From contig JARDVH010000124.1 of assembly GCA_030324005.1 (NCBI GenBank), positions 26,040,970 through 26,104,969 of the forward strand: a stretch of DNA of 64,000 nt, written 5' to 3'. Positions within the stretch are counted from its first letter, which is position 1; every line of letters begins with the position of its first letter. The position numbers and the translations under genes were made by a program. Shown in pieces: positions 8,963 through 64,000 of this stretch. The notes beneath the pieces are model-generated. The model saw only the letters and a list, made by a program, of their open reading frames with translations. It had not been told where the DNA came from and did not search any database. The DNA comes from Negaprion brevirostris (taxonomy: Eukaryota).

Positions 8963-10022
8963 ACCTTTGATAAGATTCCGCACGGTAAGCTATTGCAGAA
9001 AATACGGAGGCATGGCATTGAGGGCGATTTAGCGGTTTGGATCAGAAACTGGCTAGCTGTAAGAAGACAGAGGGTGGTGGTTGCTAGGAAATGTTCATCC
9101 TGGAGTTCAGTTACTAGTGGTGTACCGCAGGGATCTGTTTAGGGGCCACTGCTGTTTGTCATTTTTATAACTGACCTGGATGAGGGCGTAGAAGGATGGG
9201 TTAGTCAATTTGCGGATGACACTAAAGTCAGTGGAGTTGTGGACAGTGCGGAAGGATGTAAGAAGTTACAGAGGGACATAGATAAGCTGCAGAGCTGGGC
9301 TGAGAGGTGGCAAACGGAGTTTAATAATGAGATGATTCAGTTTGGAACGAATAACAGGAATACAGAGTATTGGGCCAATGGTAAGATACTTGGTAGTGTG
9401 GATGAGCAGAGAGATCTCAGTGTACATGTGCATAGATCCCTGAAAGTTGGCACCCAGGTTGATAAGGTTGTTAAGAAGGCNNNNNNNNNNNNNNNNNNNN
9501 NNNNNNNNNNNNNNNNNNNNNNNNNNNNNNNNNNNNNNNNNNNNNNNNNNNNNNNNNNNNNNNNNNNNNNNNNNNNNNNNNNNNNNNNNNNNNNNNNNNN
9601 NNNNNNNNNNNNNNNNNNNNNNNNNNNNNNNNNNNNNNNNNNNNNNNNNNNNNNNNNNNNNNNNNNNNNNNNNNNNNNNNNNNNNNNNNNNNNNNNNNNN
9701 NNNNNNNNNNNNNNNNNNNNNNNNNNNNNNNNNNNNNNNNNNNNNNNNNNNNNNNNNNNNNNNNNNNNNNNNNNNNNNNNNNNNNNNNNNNNNNNNNNNN
9801 NNNNNNNNNNNNNNNNNNNNNNNNNNNNNNNNNNNNNNNNNNNNNNNNNNNNNNNNNNNNNNNNNNNNNNNNNNNNGGGCATTTAAATGGTCATTGGATA
9901 AACATATGGATGATATTGGAATAGTGTAGGTTAGGTGGGCTTTAGATTGGTTTCACGGGTCGGCGCAACATCAGGGGCTAAAGGGCTTGTACTGCGCTGT
10001 AATGTTCTATATTCTGTGTTTC
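8963..10022 (+). mobile_element. 5'-truncated CR1-type LINE (reverse transcriptase remnant), spans an N gap
   Basis: Translates FDKIPHGKLLQKIRRHGIEG...VTSGVPQGSV*GPLLFVIFITDLDEG...FADDTKV. One in-frame stop. CR1 tail at 9960-10020. Confidence 0.93.
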
Positions 10023-11420
10023 ATTGTTCGTTGGCAACCATGCATCACTGTCCGTCACTCATGCACGTCAAATGCTTTTGCTACCAATGAAACAAAACCC
10101 AGTTTTTTGGTTAGCATCTACAGTGTTGCTAGATTCCCCAAGAAAAGTATGAGAGGAATCAAACTGCTGTCTTTTTGAGGGCTGCTTCTGCTTTCACAGC
10201 ATTTCAGTATGGTCGCACAGATGTAAACGTATCGTCATTTCTAAGCACTCTGAGAAAACAGAGAAGGTGGATTATTTTTCTTGCTCCATTTAGCAAATGT
10301 TCCTTCAGCTGCCAGGTGGCCGGATACCTGACAACTGAACCAGATTTTGATAAGCATAGTGGCGATCTGACCGATGTGTGACCCCTGGCCAACAGCAATG
10401 TTACTGATTTGTCCTTGCTCAATTAAGAATCAATAACATATAGTGGCCAGGAGAATGGTTCCCAATACTGTAACTTTAACAAAACTCAATACTGTGTGGC
10501 TCTAAAAATGAACAGGGTGATTTGCCACATGTGCTGAGCTTATTAGACAACATTGATCTGGTAGAGCAGCTGAATGGTCTAAACCTGTTCCTACCCTATC
10601 TTGTATTTTACTGTGAAAACCTGATGTATCAAAATGTTGGGCAAAATTGGTAGTCAATGATGAAAAATGATGTGCCCTGTGTCTACGGGAATACTTGACT
10701 GACACATCCTGGTGCCCACTATCTTGCCAATCACTTTCTGTTATCATTTTACAGCTGCCATAAATAATGACTTATTGCCAACAACTGAAATGTATACACC
10801 ACTTTCTCCATCACAATTTCCTGCTGTTTTGATCAGATACACAATCGTTTGTTGCAAAGAGAAGCTCGTTGAGAGTGAAGAGTTAATTTATCATATTTTC
10901 CTATGCTAGAAGCAGAACCATTAAAGCACTCAATAACAGACGTTTAGTACAATAGNNNNNNNNNNGTGAAGGGGTTGTGCTGGTGCAGCGATAAAGGGAT
11001 CTCTTTGCATGCGTACGTGTTTCTGCTCATAGAATACCTCCATGCTAGTGGTAGGCTCCAGGCAGTGGCGCTGTTAAAGCGAGAATGGGGTTTGACATCT
11101 GATTGAAATTCAGTGAAAATAACAGAATAGATTCTGGTCAATCAAAGGAATGGTGCTGTCAGATACAACACTGAAGTCCTTCTGCACCAGCCTATGCACT
11201 GCCAGCAGTTGGTTCATGCAGTGAATGGAGAACGATTGATGGAATCGAGTGTACAGGCAGCTACTTTATGCCATACAAGGAGCTTGTGAAAGAACGTCCG
11301 CTGCTGGAAGCATAAAAGATGCCCTGCCTGCAGTGACTTGTATTCACTCAACTGAACAGCAATTTCCCTTCTGCTTTGAACCTAACTACAGCATTTCTTA
11401 TAGATAGAATTAGGAAAGAA

Positions 11421-11539
11421 ATGGCTTTTAGCCCGTGGCATATCCTGTCTCCAGTACAATGGGTTCGATGGACATGGTCTGCTGTGTGTGGTGGAGGAGA
11501 CTATAGTCTCCATTTCATGCAGAAAATAACTGGAGCTAG
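11421..11539 (+). CDS. TACC2: TACC gene, probable first coding exon (MAFSPWHILSPVQWVRWTWSAVCGGGDYSLHFMQKITGA-R)
   Basis: ATG in strong context (gaaATGG). Peptide closely resembles the human TACC1 N-terminus MAFSPWQILSPVQWAKWTWSAVRGG as I recall it. Ends AG|GCAAGT (GC donor), 119 nt, phase 2, matching the next exon. Confidence 0.8.
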
Positions 11540-11647
11540 GCAAGTGTGTTTGGTATTATTGGTGGCATAAGAGGATCAGAGTGAGTGGGGTTAGTATCTC
11601 AGTGGGATTGAATTCACTTCTTACAGAATGTGTTCATTTTGCTTTAG

Positions 11648-11772
11648 GAGCTCAGACTCAGAGGGAGCATTCGAGACACCTGAAGAGACAACACCTGTTA
11701 AAGTCCCTCCGCAGATCTCTCCTCCTGCCACTGAGAAGGAAAGCCAGGAACAGCTGCCTTCAGAACAGTCAG
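11648..11772 (+). CDS. TACC2: TACC exon (SSDSEGAFETPEETTPVKVPPQISPPATEKESQEQLPSEQS)
   Basis: Acceptor ttttgctttag, donor G|GTAAAG, 125 nt (phase 2 to phase 1). Matches the TACC2 SSDSEEAFETPESTTPVK motif. This frame is not in the ORF track. Confidence 0.93.
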
Positions 11773-27971: not shown

Positions 27972-29286
27972 TGTTTTTTCCCGATGATAATCAGACTGGT
28001 GTTGCCCCTGAGACACAACTGCAAGAAACTGATTCCTTCAGACCTCTCACTGAGTCAGCTTCAATTGTCTTTGATGAGGATAAACCAATAGCCAGCAGTG
28101 GTGCTTATAAAATAGATTTTGATAGCCTTGATATTTTAGACTCTTTCCAACCTCACTGTCCTTTGGATCCGAGCTCACCTGTGAAGTCGGAAAGTTCCAA
28201 AATTTGCGGACAATCCGGTGAGAATTCTCTGCATTCTACCAACAGTACCAGCTCGGCACTGCCAACATCTCCCCCGTTGGCGCGGAAGTCTGATGGAACT
28301 ACAGATGTTGGTCGCACAGAGGAGGTGGCAAAAACATTACAGGCAGAGGCTTTTAGCATAGCCTCGGATAATGCTCACAGCGTCAAGAAAAAGAAACCTA
28401 GACCACTATCTCTAAAAAGGAAGACCAAGTCGGAGAAACCAGCAGAAGCACAAGCAGATAAACCAACAGAGACCTCGACTGTGACAGAAACACGAGCAAG
28501 GTCCACCATCCCCGAGACTAGTAATGAAGTGACTGTGTCTCATTCATCCTGCAACGGTTTACAAAGCGCAGTTGATCAACAGGACTCCCCCGTTCCTCAT
28601 CAGGCCTCCTGCAGCTTTGATCCAGATAACCTTTCCGAGCGTAATCCATTTGCGAGTGGAGATAAACAACAGAACTTGCCAGTAGCACAGAGTGAGTGCG
28701 AGACTGTTACTGCTGTGTTAAAAGAAACGGATAACACAGCACCTGAGTCTGCAACGCTTCCAGATACTCCAGCTGTGGGCCATGCAGTGAGGCTGGAGTT
28801 TGATTATTCCGAGGATAAAGACAGTTTTGAAATTGAGCAAGATAAAAAGCCCATTCCTAAGAAATTTGGCAAAAAATCTGGTGGAAAGATGCCACTTAGA
28901 AAGCCAAAGATAGGAGTCAAGAAGGTTCCGGCAGTGGAAAAGGTAGACAACGCTCTTGCTGCACCATCTCATTCAACTGTTGATCCCGATGATATCCCTA
29001 TTCCAAAGACCACGTATTCATTTGACCCTTCGAAATGGGATGATCCCAATTTCAACCCATTTAGCACGAATGTACAGGTTCCAAATTCTCCCAAGTTGCC
29101 TCATGCTGCATTCAGTTATGACATGGACAACTGTGATAACTCTGTGGACTCATTTAAATCTTCAACAAAAATCTCAGGATCCCCTTCTCATTCCCCCGCT
29201 TCGTTCGAGGTGAATGATGACACTGGTACTAGTGAGGGGGATGTTAACAATAAATCATCGAAGAAGAAGAGGCTACCTTTAAAGAC
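27972..29286 (+). CDS. TACC2: TACC2 large Ser/Pro-rich exon with SDP repeats
   Basis: Core of the 458-aa ORF. Motifs FDEDKPIASSGAY, KKPRPLSLK, VRLEFDYSEDK, KMPLRKPK, WDDPNFNPFS, SPASFE, KKKRLPLKT are TACC2-typical. Acceptor ttctatttcag, donor AC|GTAAGC, 1315 nt (phase 1 to phase 2). Confidence 0.96.
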
Positions 29287-40480: not shown

Positions 40481-40541
40481 AAATACTTTTCGGGTGAAGA
40501 GATCCCCAAAGCGTACCTCACTATCTGAAGCATCCTCGCAG
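40481..40541 (+). CDS. TACC2: TACC2 exon (NTFRVKRSPKRTSLSEASSQ)
   Basis: Acceptor ttctatctgcag, donor CAG|GTCAGT, 61 nt (phase 2 to phase 0). Homologous to DTFRVKKSPKRSPLSDPPSQ. Confidence 0.93.
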
Positions 40542-40988: not shown

Positions 40989-41214
40989 GAATCAACGCCA
41001 CTTAATACACCTGAGACCCCACAGGTAATTGGTACGGTGGAACATGCCACTGATGAAGAGAAACTGGCATCTTCAGTGACAAACCAGAAATGGTCCTACT
41101 CTGGAATACAAAGTGAATTGGAAGAAGATAAACCTGATTATCCTCAGCCTTCAGATCTTTCCGCGTTCGTCAATGAGAATTCTGAATTTGTAAATGAGAA
41201 CTATTCTTCAGCGG
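40989..41214 (+). CDS. TACC2: TACC2 exon (ESTPLNTPETPQ...HATDEEKLA...DYPQPSDLSAFVNE...)
   Basis: Acceptor tgctttag, donor G|GTATGT, 226 nt (phase 0 to phase 1). Carries the TACC-family HATDEEKLA motif and the TACC2 YPQPSDLS motif. Confidence 0.95.
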
Positions 41215-45672: not shown

Positions 45673-45734
45673 TGCTGGGATATGAACACTCTCTAGAAAT
45701 AGAGTACATGGAAAAAATTGGTTCATCATCACCT
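45673..45734 (+). CDS. TACC2: TACC2 exon (VLGYEHSLEIEYMEKIGSSSP)
   Basis: Acceptor ccttgccttacag, donor CCT|GTAAGT, 62 nt (phase 1 to phase 0). EIEYMEKIGSS matches TACC2. Confidence 0.94.
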
Positions 45735-46044: not shown

Positions 46045-46160
46045 CATCATGATACAAATGCAAAAAAACAATCCATGTACTTGAAGATAGATTCTCTGAA
46101 AGACAGTCCAATAAAATGTCCTCCCATCAGGCTGTCTGATTCAACCACTCCGTGTTCAGG
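46045..46160 (+). CDS. TACC2: TACC2 exon (HHDTNAKKQSMYLKIDSLKDSPIKCPPIRLSDSTTPCSG)
   Basis: Long pyrimidine tract plus ctag, donor GG|GTATGT, 116 nt (phase 0 to phase 2). Homologous to KKQALYLMFD...SPVRMSESPTPCSG. Confidence 0.93.
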
Positions 46161-49588: not shown

Positions 49589-49745
49589 ATCGAGTTTAGA
49601 TGATGCAGATGATGGTGTGCCTTCTACTGCAAATAAACTTTCTGTCACACGACCTTTGGTTCCTGGTCAAGAGGCACATTTACAGTCACCTGACAAATTG
49701 AAAGACACAGATTCCCTGAACTCATCTCCAGCCAAGTCAGACATG
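49589..49745 (+). CDS. TACC2: TACC2 exon (SSLDDADDGVPSTANKLSVTRPLVPGQEAHLQSPDK...SDM)
   Basis: Acceptor tatttttcag, donor ATG|GTGAGT, 157 nt (phase 2 to phase 0). Similar to SSFEE...RGLAPNQESHLQVPEK. Confidence 0.9.
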
Positions 49746-54490: not shown

Positions 54491-54625
54491 GCAACTCCTG
54501 AGGAACCAGTTGCCCCTGCAGATGCCTTGTTAAGTAGGATTATAGGACACACAGATGATGAGCTTGACTATCTGCAGCCTGACACAGCTGAAAAGAACCC
54601 TTCGGCATTCGCGTACAAGTTACAG
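54491..54625 (+). CDS. TACC2: TACC2 exon (ATPEEPVAPADALLSRIIG...LDYLQPDTAEKNPSAFAYKLQ)
   Basis: Acceptor ccttctgtgcag, donor CAG|GTTTGT, 135 nt, symmetric phase 0. ADALLSR and LDYLxPDxAEKNP motifs. Confidence 0.94.
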
Positions 54626-54791: not shown

Positions 54792-54881
54792 GAAGAGCTA
54801 GTGTATGCAGCCATGAGGATAGAAGCACTGAAGCTAGCCAAACAGCTATCCAACTCTCCCAACAGCTCCTTAGATAATGAG
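54792..54881 (+). CDS. TACC2: TACC2 exon (EELVYAAMRIEALKLAKQLSNSPNSSLDNE)
   Basis: Acceptor atgccag, donor GAG|GTATCC, 90 nt, symmetric phase 0. Matches EELEFAIMRIEALKLARQ. Confidence 0.92.
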
Positions 54882-55675: not shown

Positions 55676-56398
55676 TTATACAGTAAATGGTAGAACGCAT
55701 AAGAGTATTGACAGGCAGAAAGAACTAGGCGGACACATCCACCAATCACTGAAAGCGGCAACACAGGTATAGAGAAGGTAGGCAAGAAAGCATACGGCAT
55801 GCTTGCCTTCATTGGCCAGGGCATTGAGTATAAAAATTGGCGGGTCATACTGCAGCTGTACAGAACCTTAGTTAGGCCTCATTTAGAATATTGTGTACAA
55901 TTTTGGTTGCCACACTACCAGAAGGATATGGATGCTTTGGAGAGGGTACAGAAGAGGTTTACCAGGATGTTGCCTGGTATGGAGGATATTAGCTAGCTGG
56001 AGAGGTTGGATAAACTTGACTTCTTCTCATTGGAATGACAGAGGTTGAGGGGTGACCTGATAGAGGCCTACAAGATTATGAGTGGCATGGACAGAGTGGA
56101 TAGTCAGATGCTTTTTTCTAGAGTAGAAAAGTCAGTATTAGAGGACATAGGTTTAAGGTGCATGGGGAAAAAGTTTAGAGGAGATGTGCAAGGCAAGTTT
56201 TCTACACAGAGGATGGTGAANNNNNNNNNNNNNNNNNNNNNNNNNNNNNNNNNNNNNNNNNNNNNNNNNNNNNNNNNNNNNNNNNNNNNNNNNNAATGGA
56301 AGGAAACGGACTCTAAGTGCTAACGGTTTTAGTTTAGGATGGCATCATGATCGGCGCAGGCTTGAAGGGCTGAAGGGCCTGTTCGTTTACTGTACTTC
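55676..56398 (+). mobile_element. CR1 3' portion
   Basis: MLAFIGQGIEYK...LYRTLVRPHLEYCVQFWLPHYQKDMDALERVQKRFTRMLPG and RGDLIEAYKIMSG. Confidence 0.9.
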
Positions 56399-60973: not shown

Positions 60974-61404
60974 AATTGCAGCGCCTGGCATGGGGTGTAT
61001 AGTTAACAAAGAACTAGGTCATTAAATCTGTGGCTGACATATGCCAATATCATGTGCAAGAAATCTAATGATCAATTTTTCCTTTTCATGCCAAATTAAC
61101 AACTCACTATTGGAGGTAATCGGGTCTGTTATGTTATCAGTTTTAGGGTCATTTATCCTTTTTAAAATTAAGTAGTAAAGGGATTAATTTCAAAATATTC
61201 TGGATTGATTTATCTTTGCAGTAGTTAGAGCATACTTTTTAAAAAGCCATTTCAATATGATGCTTTCTTTCTCTGATTGGCTAACTCATGCTTTCAGCTG
61301 ACATGTGCATGAATGGTTGAGGTATGGTAATTATCCAAATTTATCAAAGGTTTAGTTATCATGTCACTTTCTTCAGTTTCTTTCACTTGTCTGTATGCTC
61401 ACAG

Positions 61405-61461
61405 ATCAGAGGGAGGATCACAGCCCAAAGACAACGGGCCAATTTTGGTTCATGCTTGCAA
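61405..61461 (+). CDS. Candidate cassette exon (IRGRITAQRQRANFGSCLQ)
   Basis: Long pyrimidine tract ending ctcacag, donor CAA|GTAAGA, 57 nt, stop-free, phase 0 to phase 0 as required here. No homology recognised. Confidence 0.4.
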
Positions 61462-64000
61462 GTAAGAGATAGTTTAGGACCTTCCCCGATGGTAATCTGT
61501 TTTATAACATTGTACAATAAAGCATCATCAATGCTTACAGCATTTGAAAGTAACAATATGTGTTTTGTAATATGAACTGTATGTAGTAAAATTGTTGGAA
61601 TTTTAATAATGGCTACTTTATCTGGAAATCCAGTAAAGACTAAAGCTAAACATTTCTCAAGAAATACATTGGATCCGAAGCATTAACTAGCTGAACTTTT
61701 TCTCAAACAAAGTAGATTGCAGTGGTTCTGTTGGGATATAGCCATTACTTTTAGTTGTGACACTATTGTCATTTGGTTTAATTTACATTTATAATTCTTA
61801 ATAAGATAACTTCTGATAGTTTGACTGAAAATATGAAAAATTTGATTCCTTTGGCCTGGCTAAATTTCAGAATTCTCACCTCCAAATATGACACCTACCA
61901 TTTTTGTGGGGCAGGAATGGTCCCAGTCAGGATTTGACACACACATTTTACAGAGGCAGCTGCCTACTCATCTCTAAATTTGGTGATGTTGGTGTGTAAA
62001 ACACGATTTTTGCAGGATAGACCTGATCAAAGCAGGCCTGAAATATGTGGAGCCTTCGGAGAGGGAGGGTTCCTCTTCAGGTTTGACCTTGGAACCTTCT
62101 TAGGGGAGGCCAGATGNNNNNNNNNNCAGATGCCTTTTGGGAAAGGTCAAGTGTTCCTTGGGGAAGTTAAGGTATCCCTTGAGATTGTTAAAATAGGCAT
62201 GAATGTGTGTTAAGAAATGCATAAAGTTGATTGAACTTGATTGTCAAGTTCATAGGAACTGTCAAAATGAATTGTCTGAAGCAACTATCAAAAGTCTCAA
62301 ACTGAATTGTCAAGCCGGCAAGGCACTTAAAACACCCACCTTTTAAATCTTTGAATACAATGTCTGTAGTTTTTTTAAGTGGTAGTTAGGTACTTTACCC
62401 TGTTGACAGAGTCAGAGGGCTCCCAATAATGGGTTAGTGCTGCATGACAGATTTCACCAGTTTTCATTAGCACATTAGGATGACTTTTGTTTCACAATTT
62501 AATAGACAGGTCCCAGTAGTTATTGACTCTTTGAAGTGGGGCTATGAATTCCAATGTTTGCCTTTATAAGGATTAAGCATCTGAAATAAAATATTGTTTT
62601 CATAGGGGTGTAATTTAATGAATGTAAATGTAGTGAATGGGTTTTAATCAAAGACCAGAATGAAAAATTCACCTGGGGAACTTTTCTGGCTCAGATTTAC
62701 AGAGCTGGGAAGTGGCCTGACTTTATATTTCAGATCCAGAGAGCAAACATCCAGGCCTTAATTTTAATTTTAATAGGACAGTGCTATTTGGAGAAATAAA
62801 GTTCTATTAGAAAAATAAATCACAGACCATTCTAATTAGTACAAAGGATTTATTCAGTATAATACTTCGTGCAATTTAAGAAACTAGACTTTGTACATAC
62901 ATCTGGATTTAAAAAGCATTGAATACCCTACGACTCAAAAAGACGTCCTGGTACTTGAGGTGTTAATAATGGAAGACATATCCTCCTTATTATTTAATTT
63001 GTTTTGTTTCATTTTTTATTCTAACCGTGTAAGGCAAAAACCAAAGAAATGTAAAGCACTTGACTTCACAATTGGTTCCAATGTGAATTTCCAAGCTGTT
63101 CAAACTCATTGCAGGAAGAGTATTTGACAAAATGGTGACTGAGTTCATATTGCTCTCTCTGTGTCTGACTGTTGTGAAGTGAGACATATTTAAGTCCGTT
63201 AACTTCTTCCTCCTTACCATTGACTCCATGCTGACTTCTCATGGCCATTATGATAAAGTAATATTCCTTCCAGGAAACTAAAACAACTTTGCATTACATA
63301 GCATTTTAATCATGGCATCACTTCAGTATTCCTAATTGTACACTTTGTCAGAAAATAGATTTAATAAACAATATTTAGCAGAGATGGGCAGAGGAACTCC
63401 ATTTCCTTCTGTTATTTTTTCCATTTAATTTGTAATTCAGTTATTGCATGTTGCTACCATTTGTCTAGATTGCATGTTGCTACTTGGCTTTCTAGACAAA
63501 TGGTGAAATAAAATATGAAACACTTTTTTAAAAAAAACAAGTATTCTTTTGTTTTCCTATTATCTGACTTTATAAAACTAGAAGTTGACAAATTCTGCAC
63601 TTGGTATTGTCTCCTGCCTGTACTAATTTGGATTTATTATTCATTTTGTTTGCCATTCCTTTACTTCTCCAGAATTGTGAATGATACAAAAACATATTCA
63701 CTCTCTTTCAGGTCACAGATTTTCAGTTAAGAAAAAAGAACCTAAAGACCAATGGCATTGTTTATATGCAGTCCAAAATTTCACTTATCCTTTATCCTCA
63801 AGGTTTATTTCCTTTGACTGCCCATGTGTGTTCTCCCACACGTCTCATCACACACATGTGTGCACATGCAAGCACACACGCTCTTTCCAAAAATCTTAAA
63901 TCTGCGCCCCATCATCCTTGTGCTATCACATAATGGGGCCACTTTTACTTGCATATCTTATCCACATCTGTCATATCCTCATATGCTTCTATCAAATCTC

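What the first reader, a model, noticed from the sequence alone, without database searches (positions are those of the whole stretch)
11421..11772. TACC1-type N-terminal exon on a TACC2-type gene body
Seen: an ATG in strong context encodes MAFSPWHILSPVQWVRWTWSAVCGG, in an exon ending only 108 nt upstream of the SSDSEGAFETPE exon. Established (from recall): MAFSPWQILSPVQWAKWTWSAVRGG is the N-terminus of mammalian TACC1, while the downstream exons here (FDEDKPIASSG, YPQPSDLS, EIEYMEKIG, ADALLSR, MRIEALKLA) are TACC2-type. I do not recall this start in mammalian TACC2 isoforms. Inference: the Trp-rich first exon predates the TACC1/TACC2 duplication, was kept in shark TACC2, and was lost or is unannotated in mammals. 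It may be a membrane-binding amphipathic segment beside the acidic, FFAT-like SDSEGAFETPE stretch.
Basis: partly seen in the sequence, partly recalled or inferred. Interest (0 to 1): 0.72.

Follow-up and report, generated by a model that had tools for sequence, protein, structure and literature searches.

The report
Ancient alternative start exon of TACC2
This shark TACC2 gene keeps an intact tryptophan-rich start exon that TACC1, turtle and sturgeon TACC2 and a lamprey TACC also carry, so it likely predates the TACC1/TACC2 split; it likely serves as an alternative targeting tag to a fatty-acid-anchor start exon, though its use in sharks is unshown.

Summary
The exon is real: ATG 11421 to 11539, then a 108-nt GC-AG intron, then the SSDSEGAFETPE exon. 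The gene is TACC2 by tree, exon lengths and ATE1/NSMCE4A neighbours. The first 22 residues match TACC1 at 18-19 of 22, but the exon is not shark-specific. Automated models already carry it in turtle and sturgeon TACC2, and lamprey TACC has it too. Its basic tail resembles lamprey's, not TACC1's acidic one, so it is likely ancestral rather than borrowed. Read-through records (RQV) point to the same rare GC donor in TACC1, TACC2 and lamprey. Both shark paralogues also have a far-upstream 68-nt MGGSQS exon, whose human TACC1 counterpart is N-myristoylated. The Trp exon is therefore likely one of two ancient alternative N-termini, probably a membrane-targeting tag (about 45%; protein docking about 35%). 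Against this: six presumed-RNA assemblies of relatives splice other exons onto 11648; amphipathicity is not above shuffles; the FFAT score misses the published cut-off. Loss in mammals could not be tested. The scan's earlier findings held nothing on this. Modest novelty.

The parts
11421..11539 (+). Trp-rich alternative 5' coding exon of TACC2 (39 codons + 2 nt, phase 2); its 5' end is unknown
   Evidence: same length in turtle TACC2 models
11421..11486 (+). 22-residue conserved head (W6, L9, S10, P11, W14, W17, W19, A21, V22); predicted short helix, Pro turn, helix 11-24
   Evidence: alignment A1, identities, AlphaFold2 mean pLDDT 64, block 11-20 at 81
11487..11539 (+). short basic tail, like turtle, sturgeon and lamprey and unlike the acidic TACC1 linker
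11540..11647 (+). 108-nt GC-AG intron (AG|GCAAGT ... TTTTGCTTTAG|G)
   Evidence: unchanged donor in two relatives' contigs; RQV read-through in 21 of 44 homologues
11394..11403 (+). acceptor-like TTTCTTATAG 17 nt before the ATG; may mean a non-coding leader exon lies upstream
   Evidence: untested
11648..11772 (+). common SSDSEGAFETPE exon (human exon 8 equivalent) onto which the alternative 5' exons splice
   Evidence: both ends match contig ends in 6 of 6 presumed-RNA runs of relatives
27972..29286 (+). large TACC2 exon (1315 nt; human exon 9 is 1312 nt)
   Evidence: joined to 11772 in contigs
40481..40541 (+). TACC2 exon, 61 nt (human exon 10: 61)
40989..41214 (+). TACC2 exon with HATDEEK and YPQPSDLS
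45673..45734 (+). TACC2 exon, 62 nt, EIEYMEKIG (human exon 12: 62)
46045..46160 (+). TACC2 exon, 116 nt (human exon 13: 116)
49589..49745 (+). TACC2 exon, 157 nt
54491..54625 (+). TACC2 exon with ADALLSR
54792..54881 (+). 90-nt TACC2 exon with MRIEALKLA

Best explanation
The shark TACC2 gene carries an intact Trp-rich start exon homologous to TACC1 exon 1, which is likely an ancestral alternative first exon that would give one TACC2 isoform a short helical membrane-targeting tag in place of a likely myristoylated MGG start. Shown: exon structure, TACC2 identity, the same exon in turtle and sturgeon TACC2 models and lamprey TACC, and a 68-nt phase-2 MGGSQS exon far upstream in both shark TACC2 and shark TACC1. 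Inferred: the ancestor of TACC1 and TACC2 had both starts feeding the SDSE exon; a near promoter makes the Trp form, spliced at a weak GC donor; TACC1 later gained an acidic linker. Inferred and untested: the helix-Pro-helix head with four invariant Trp sits in the cytosolic leaflet of an endomembrane (ER most likely) while the C-terminal TACC coiled coil tracks microtubule ends, so promoter choice sets how the protein is anchored. In shark TACC2 the Trp form is likely minor or tissue-restricted. Gene-structure and ancestry part about 0.9; the membrane mechanism about 0.45.
For: TACC2 identity: best hits are shark TACC2 at 76-77%; TACC-domain tree puts it with TACC2 at 95/93 and rejects a clade with TACC1, p-AU 0.0025; ATE1 and NSMCE4A families lie 0.2-0.35 Mb upstream on the same contig (the human gene order is recalled); separate TACC1 and TACC3 loci exist. 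Ancestry: head identity to shark is 18-19/22 in four TACC1, 15/22 turtle TACC2, 17/22 sturgeon TACC2, 16/22 lamprey. The tail aligns to turtle and lamprey (0 of 2000 shuffles) and sturgeon (10 of 2000) but not to four TACC1 (203-978 of 2000). 21 of 44 Trp-head proteins read RQV after the exon, across TACC1, TACC2-type and lamprey records. Two-start layout: shark TACC2 and TACC1 MGG exons; both starts in Chrysemys and sterlet TACC2 and in lungfish TACC1. Human TACC1 GGSHSQTPR is an identified myristoylation site (PMC4200515 supplement rows). TACC1 is in the ER-membrane APEX proteome (PMC5404927 supplement row) and among seven proteins shared by all five VAP-family interactomes (PMC8306308 legend). 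TACC domain mediates plus-end tracking (PMC5063610, PMC4520305 passages).
Against: 0 of 6 presumed-RNA runs of relatives had a contig on the Trp exon; 5 join the long-form exon and 1 the MGG exon to 11648 (contigs drop rare forms). None of the shark TACC2 models retrieved starts with it. Hydrophobic moment is not exceptional: shuffles reach it in 402 (shark), 61 (turtle), 1325 (sturgeon), 127 (coelacanth TACC1) and 245 (lamprey) of 2000, and W19 lies on the face opposite W14/W17. The ER signal of human TACC1 may come from the myristoylated isoform, since the protein groups pool isoforms. A GFP-tagged Xenopus TACC1 N-terminal half stayed cytoplasmic (PMC4520305 passage). Human TACC1 exon 1 is described as the LSm7/SmG binding site (PMC8665927 passage). 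The AlphaFold model is low confidence (pTM 0.31). TACC2 myristoylation was not found in PMC4200515's files. The lamprey gene's place in the tree is unresolved.
Confidence: 0.5

Rival explanations
1. Same ancestral alternative exon, but the head is a protein-docking motif (for LSm7/SmG or an unknown partner), not a lipid anchor.
For: 10 of the first 22 positions are invariant in the 15 rows of A1, lamprey included; such fixity suits a protein interface more than a lipid surface (inference). LSm7/SmG binding is assigned to human TACC1 exon 1 (PMC8665927 passage). Amphipathicity is unremarkable.
Against: It occupies the same slot as a myristoylated start. The original LSm7/SmG paper was not held, so the mapping to these 22 residues, rather than the acidic TACC1 linker, was not seen.
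Confidence: 0.33
2. The exon is a silent or decaying relic in shark TACC2.
For: No contig support in 6 of 6 presumed-RNA runs. In one relative the exon (1 change in 119) is not significantly more conserved than the downstream intron (19 in 428; p=0.09), and that change is non-synonymous.
Against: Frame, exon length, ATG and GC donor are kept between shark and turtle; neutral DNA would not survive that span (inference).
Confidence: 0.08
3. The exon was copied from TACC1 into TACC2 by gene conversion or exon shuffling in sharks.
For: The head is closer to TACC1 (18-19/22) than to turtle TACC2 (15/22).
Against: The tail is TACC2/lamprey-type, the exon is in turtle and sturgeon TACC2, and the paralogues lie on different contigs. 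The shark TACC1 Trp exon itself was not seen, so the direct comparison is missing.
Confidence: 0.04
4. The gene is TACC1 or a chimeric mis-assembly.
For: TACC1-like head only.
Against: Tree test, neighbours, one 2.3-kb contig of a relative spans both exons, and a separate TACC1 exists.
Confidence: 0.01

Closest known systems
Vertebrate TACC1 Trp-rich exon 1 (lungfish XP_043940264.1, coelacanth XP_006009678.1, caecilian XP_033804599.1)
   Same: 22-residue head 18-19/22 identical, phase-2 junction onto the SDSE exon, RQV read-through implying a GC donor
   Different: TACC1 has an acidic linker of 28-33 residues (net -7 to -9); shark TACC2 has 18 residues, net +1
Turtle TACC2 isoforms X28/X31 (Chrysemys), X13 (Gopherus), Emys; sterlet TACC2 X1 (XP_058891682.1)
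   Same: Direct orthologue of this exon; same length in turtles, two residues longer in sterlet
   Different: Automated models only; no paper on them found; none of the retrieved shark models includes it
Lamprey TACC (CAM9390124.1, CAM9474851.1)
   Same: Head 16/22, similar basic tail, RQV read-through in one model
   Different: Extra sequence before a diverged SDSECFETDQ motif; orthology to TACC1, 2 or 3 unresolved
N-myristoylated MGG isoform of human TACC1 (PMC4200515)
   Same: Alternative start feeding the same SDSE exon; homologous 68-nt exons in both shark paralogues
   Different: Lipid anchor shown by proteomics; the Trp exon has no Gly2
Phospho-FFAT motifs (STARD3 type, PMC7705450)
   Same: Acidic tract, F at core 2, T at 4, P at 5
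   Different: Glu at core 3; score 3.0 in TACC2, 4.5-5 in TACC1, 7.5 in lamprey, cut-off <3

Membership tests
TACC2 orthologue | C-terminal TACC domain grouping with TACC2 | tested here: met
   PF05010 exons downstream of the window; tree 95/93; TACC1 clade rejected p-AU 0.0025
TACC2 orthologue | TACC2 exon structure | tested here: met
   3 of 8 compared exons equal the human lengths, the other 5 differ by multiples of 3
TACC2 orthologue | Synteny ATE1-NSMCE4A-TACC2 | tested here: met
   human order recalled
TACC2 orthologue | Linkage to FGFR2 | not tested
   no FGFR search was run
TACC1 exon-1 homologue | Conserved Trp head | tested here: met
TACC1 exon-1 homologue | Same phase and GC donor before the SDSE exon | tested here: met
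   direct in shark DNA; inferred from protein read-through for TACC1, turtle-like and lamprey records
TACC1 exon-1 homologue | Acidic Gly/Glu linker of TACC1 | tested here: not met
Expressed alternative first exon | Transcripts joining 11539 to 11648 | tested here: inconclusive
   0 of 6 presumed-RNA contig sets of relatives; contigs drop rare forms
Amphipathic membrane-binding helix | Helical, with one segregated hydrophobic face | tested here: inconclusive
   helix predicted at low confidence; moment above 95% of shuffles in 1 of 5 homologues only
Amphipathic membrane-binding helix | Binds membranes | not testable with these tools
   needs flotation or imaging
Phospho-FFAT motif | Score below 3 on the published matrix | tested here: not met
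   3.0 in 4 of 4 TACC2, 4.5-5.0 in 3 of 3 TACC1; 207 of 500 shuffles reach 3.0
Conventional FFAT motif | Conventional matrix score and VAP binding | not tested
   conventional matrix not applied; the published table lists other sites as TACC2's best

The most novel reading that the evidence does not exclude
TACC1 and TACC2 have kept, since before their duplication, a promoter switch between two membrane anchors (a myristoyl MGG exon and a Trp helix exon behind a conserved GC-AG intron). That would make them isoform-programmed linkers between the ER or other membranes and microtubule plus ends, with amniote lineages other than turtles possibly losing the Trp option from TACC2.
Probability: 0.3. 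Interest if true: 0.62.

Novelty: new member of a known kind. Interest (0 to 1): 0.32.

Why it matters
TACC proteins are studied through their C-terminal coiled coil; the most conserved N-terminal piece of TACC1 has little functional work in the papers I could read. Seeing it as one of two ancient alternative starts, the other being myristoylated, gives a simple testable idea about where each isoform sits. N-terminal GFP tags, as used for Xenopus TACC2, would mask either anchor. It also corrects annotation: GC donors are easily missed, and shark TACC2 models lack this exon. If only the evolutionary part holds, this is a routine paralogue-exon retention already present in automated annotation.

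Tried and rejected
Word-index protein search with the 49-aa open frame found nothing, yet HMMER found 35 TACC hits. That tool's blanks are therefore unreliable here, which also weakens (only 2 turtle candidates for the turtle exon). No RNA holder was listed on record for the stretch; the runs laid are guessed RNA of relatives and contigs only. Own-genome search with the exon found only itself. A local profile scan of the window and 50 fetched loci found no second copy at the TACC1 or TACC3 loci; 52,572 of 190,000 bases fetched upstream in TACC1 read N, so absence there means nothing. Pfam, PDB sequences and the ESM Atlas gave no match for the exon. The scan's earlier findings gave nothing relevant. 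Still et al. 2004 (BMC Evol Biol, TACC evolution) and Conte et al. 2002 (Oncogene) were not held; either may already discuss this exon. FANTOM promoter positions near human exon 8 could not be read from a figure's text. PMC1175095 and PMC2822774 passages added nothing on the exon. Two of 14 supplement files of PMC7705450 were not searched. No complex prediction was run.

Full report
Observation. The window encodes MAFSPWHILSPVQWVRWTWSAVCGG from an ATG at 11421. The coding exon ends at 11539 after 39 codons and two bases. A 108-nt intron with an in-frame stop follows, and the SSDSEGAFETPE exon runs 11648-11772. The donor is AG|GCAAGT, a GC-AG intron. Nine of ten nearby GT donors give early stops, and the tenth is a poor match. 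Ten exons give an open 802-aa model, but the gene is longer: TACC-domain exons lie up to about 27 kb past the window, and other 5' exons lie up to about 90 kb before it.

Gene identity. The large exon's best hits are shark TACC2 at 76-77%, and the listed named hits are TACC2 or generic TACC entries. Three of eight exons equal the human TACC2 lengths in PMC8087818 (sections 3 and 11 part 1 read) and five differ by whole codons. In a TACC-domain tree of 16 rows the gene sits with TACC2 (95/93), and a clade with TACC1 is rejected (p-AU 0.0025; a 21-row tree agrees). ATE1 and NSMCE4A families lie just upstream on the same contig (the human order is recalled). Two other TACC loci exist, each near a LETM-family gene; one groups with TACC1 and the other is TACC3-like. 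FGFR linkage was not tested.

Where else the exon occurs. Of 212 records from the TACC2 searches, 184 hold the SDSE exon: 86 start MGGSQS, 83 long or other, 8 partial and 7 with the Trp exon, all in turtle clusters. HMMER with the exon gave 41 hits; by my reading 31 TACC1-type, 2 TACC2-type (sterlet XP_058891682.1 and an unnamed turtle-like record), 2 lamprey and 6 unrelated. So the exon is already in automated TACC2 annotation outside sharks. No mammal or bird TACC2 record retrieved has it, but no such genome could be searched and the word-index tool gave a demonstrable false blank (against 27), so loss in mammals is unproven.

Ancestral, not borrowed. The 22-residue head is 18-19/22 identical to four TACC1, 15/22 to turtle TACC2, 17/22 to sterlet and 16/22 to lamprey. 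The tail is short and basic in shark, turtle, sterlet and lamprey and aligns better than shuffles (0, 10 and 0 of 2000). In TACC1 it is long, acidic and unalignable (203-978 of 2000). 'TACC1-type' is thus a partial misnomer: the TACC2 form looks closer to the lamprey form. Of 44 proteins with the head, 21 continue RQV and 1 RQR where they read into the intron; the other 22 lack it and are mostly spliced models. RQV is what AG|GCARGT gives, so the GC donor is likely shared by TACC1, TACC2 and lamprey; for those it is inferred from protein, not seen in DNA. The lamprey gene's position relative to TACC1, 2 and 3 is unresolved, so the exon predates the TACC1/TACC2 split but cannot be dated further. 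The shark TACC1 Trp exon was not seen; much of that region reads N.

Two starts. Shark TACC2 has an MGGSQS exon about 29 kb upstream of the Trp exon, and shark TACC1 has one about 44 kb upstream of its SDSE exon. Both are 68 coding bases, phase 2, with GT donors. Both starts also occur in Chrysemys TACC2, sterlet TACC2 and lungfish TACC1. The human TACC1 MGG isoform is myristoylated: peptide GGSHSQTPR is listed as a modification site (PMC4200515, supplement rows seen); TACC2 was not found in those files. The long TACC2 models begin MGNESSS or MGNENSS, also a Gly2/Ser6 pattern (the consensus is recalled).

Expression. No run on record as RNA holds the stretch. Six presumed-RNA contig sets of relatives all cover 11648-11772; five join it to the long-form exon and one to the MGG exon, and none covers the Trp exon. 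Contigs drop rare forms, so this suggests a minor isoform and does not show silence. Two relatives' genomic-type contigs show no change at the donor or acceptor and one non-synonymous change in the exon; one spans the whole stretch, ATG included, in a single piece. Constraint against the flanking intron is not significant at this short distance (p=0.09). An acceptor-like site at 11394-11403 leaves the 5' end open.

Mechanism. AlphaFold2 gives a short helix, a Ser-Pro turn and a helix at 11-24, at low overall confidence. I commit to a membrane-surface tag, because it alternates with a lipid-anchor exon, has four invariant Trp, and human TACC1 appears in ER-membrane datasets: the APEX ER-membrane list (PMC5404927, supplement rows), all five VAP-family interactomes (PMC8306308, passages) and a BioID list rich in ER and nuclear-envelope proteins (PMC11985969, one passage). 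The TACC domain alone tracks microtubule plus ends (PMC5063610, PMC4520305, passages). Against: the helix is not clearly amphipathic; the ER signal may come from the myristoylated isoform; a GFP-tagged Xenopus TACC1 N-terminal half stayed cytoplasmic; and exon 1 is described as the LSm7/SmG site (PMC8665927, passage). Protein docking is a close rival. The SDSE motif scores 3.0 in four TACC2, 4.5-5 in three TACC1 and 7.5 in lamprey on the Phospho-FFAT matrix (PMC7705450, passages and Table EV4 read). The cut-off is below 3 and 207 of 500 shuffled models reach 3.0, so it is not filed as an FFAT.

Novelty. Ten searches listed no paper on a Trp start in TACC2, the shared GC donor or the two-start ancestry. 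The main TACC evolution paper and the LSm7 paper were not held and are known to me only by recall. PMC2822774, PMC1175095 (passages) and PMC5658375 (supplement 1, part 1 of 2) added nothing. Verdict: a real, ancient alternative exon, a new shark member of something already in automated annotation, with a modestly interesting and testable targeting idea. Interest 0.32.

Noticed in passing
L007 about 2289-2356 (window -17711) and L050:325-392: Homologous 68-nt, phase-2 MGGSQS first exons in shark TACC2 and shark TACC1, each with Gly2/Ser6.
   Followed up: yes
window 11540-11647: GC-AG intron whose donor appears shared by TACC1, TACC2 and lamprey TACC, judged from RQV read-through records.
   Followed up: partly
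window 61402-61473: Segment 83% identical to residues 1142-1165 of the Hemiscyllium TACC2 X3 model; likely an alternative exon used instead of, or beside, the 90-nt exon at 54792-54881.
   Followed up: no
L012-L013 and L008-L010 (window -73000 to -28800): The long shark TACC2 N-terminus is built from tandemly repeated small exons (e.g. LEHVKPLDGAEV-type repeats), not one giant exon as in human exon 4.
   Followed up: no
L066 (G000:C160:7594471-7594626): A second ATE1_C match on another contig in a 183-aa open frame; possibly a paralogue or retrocopy.
   Followed up: no
P0222 (lamprey TACC): Combines the Trp start with an RKQSLYVKFDPLL stretch that matches the shark TACC3-like locus at 79%, so it may preserve a pre-duplication layout.
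   Followed up: partly
window 9143-9883, 55712-55993 and others: Fragments resembling LINE/CR1 reverse-transcriptase ends and SINEs fill the introns (resemblance recalled, not searched).
   Followed up: no
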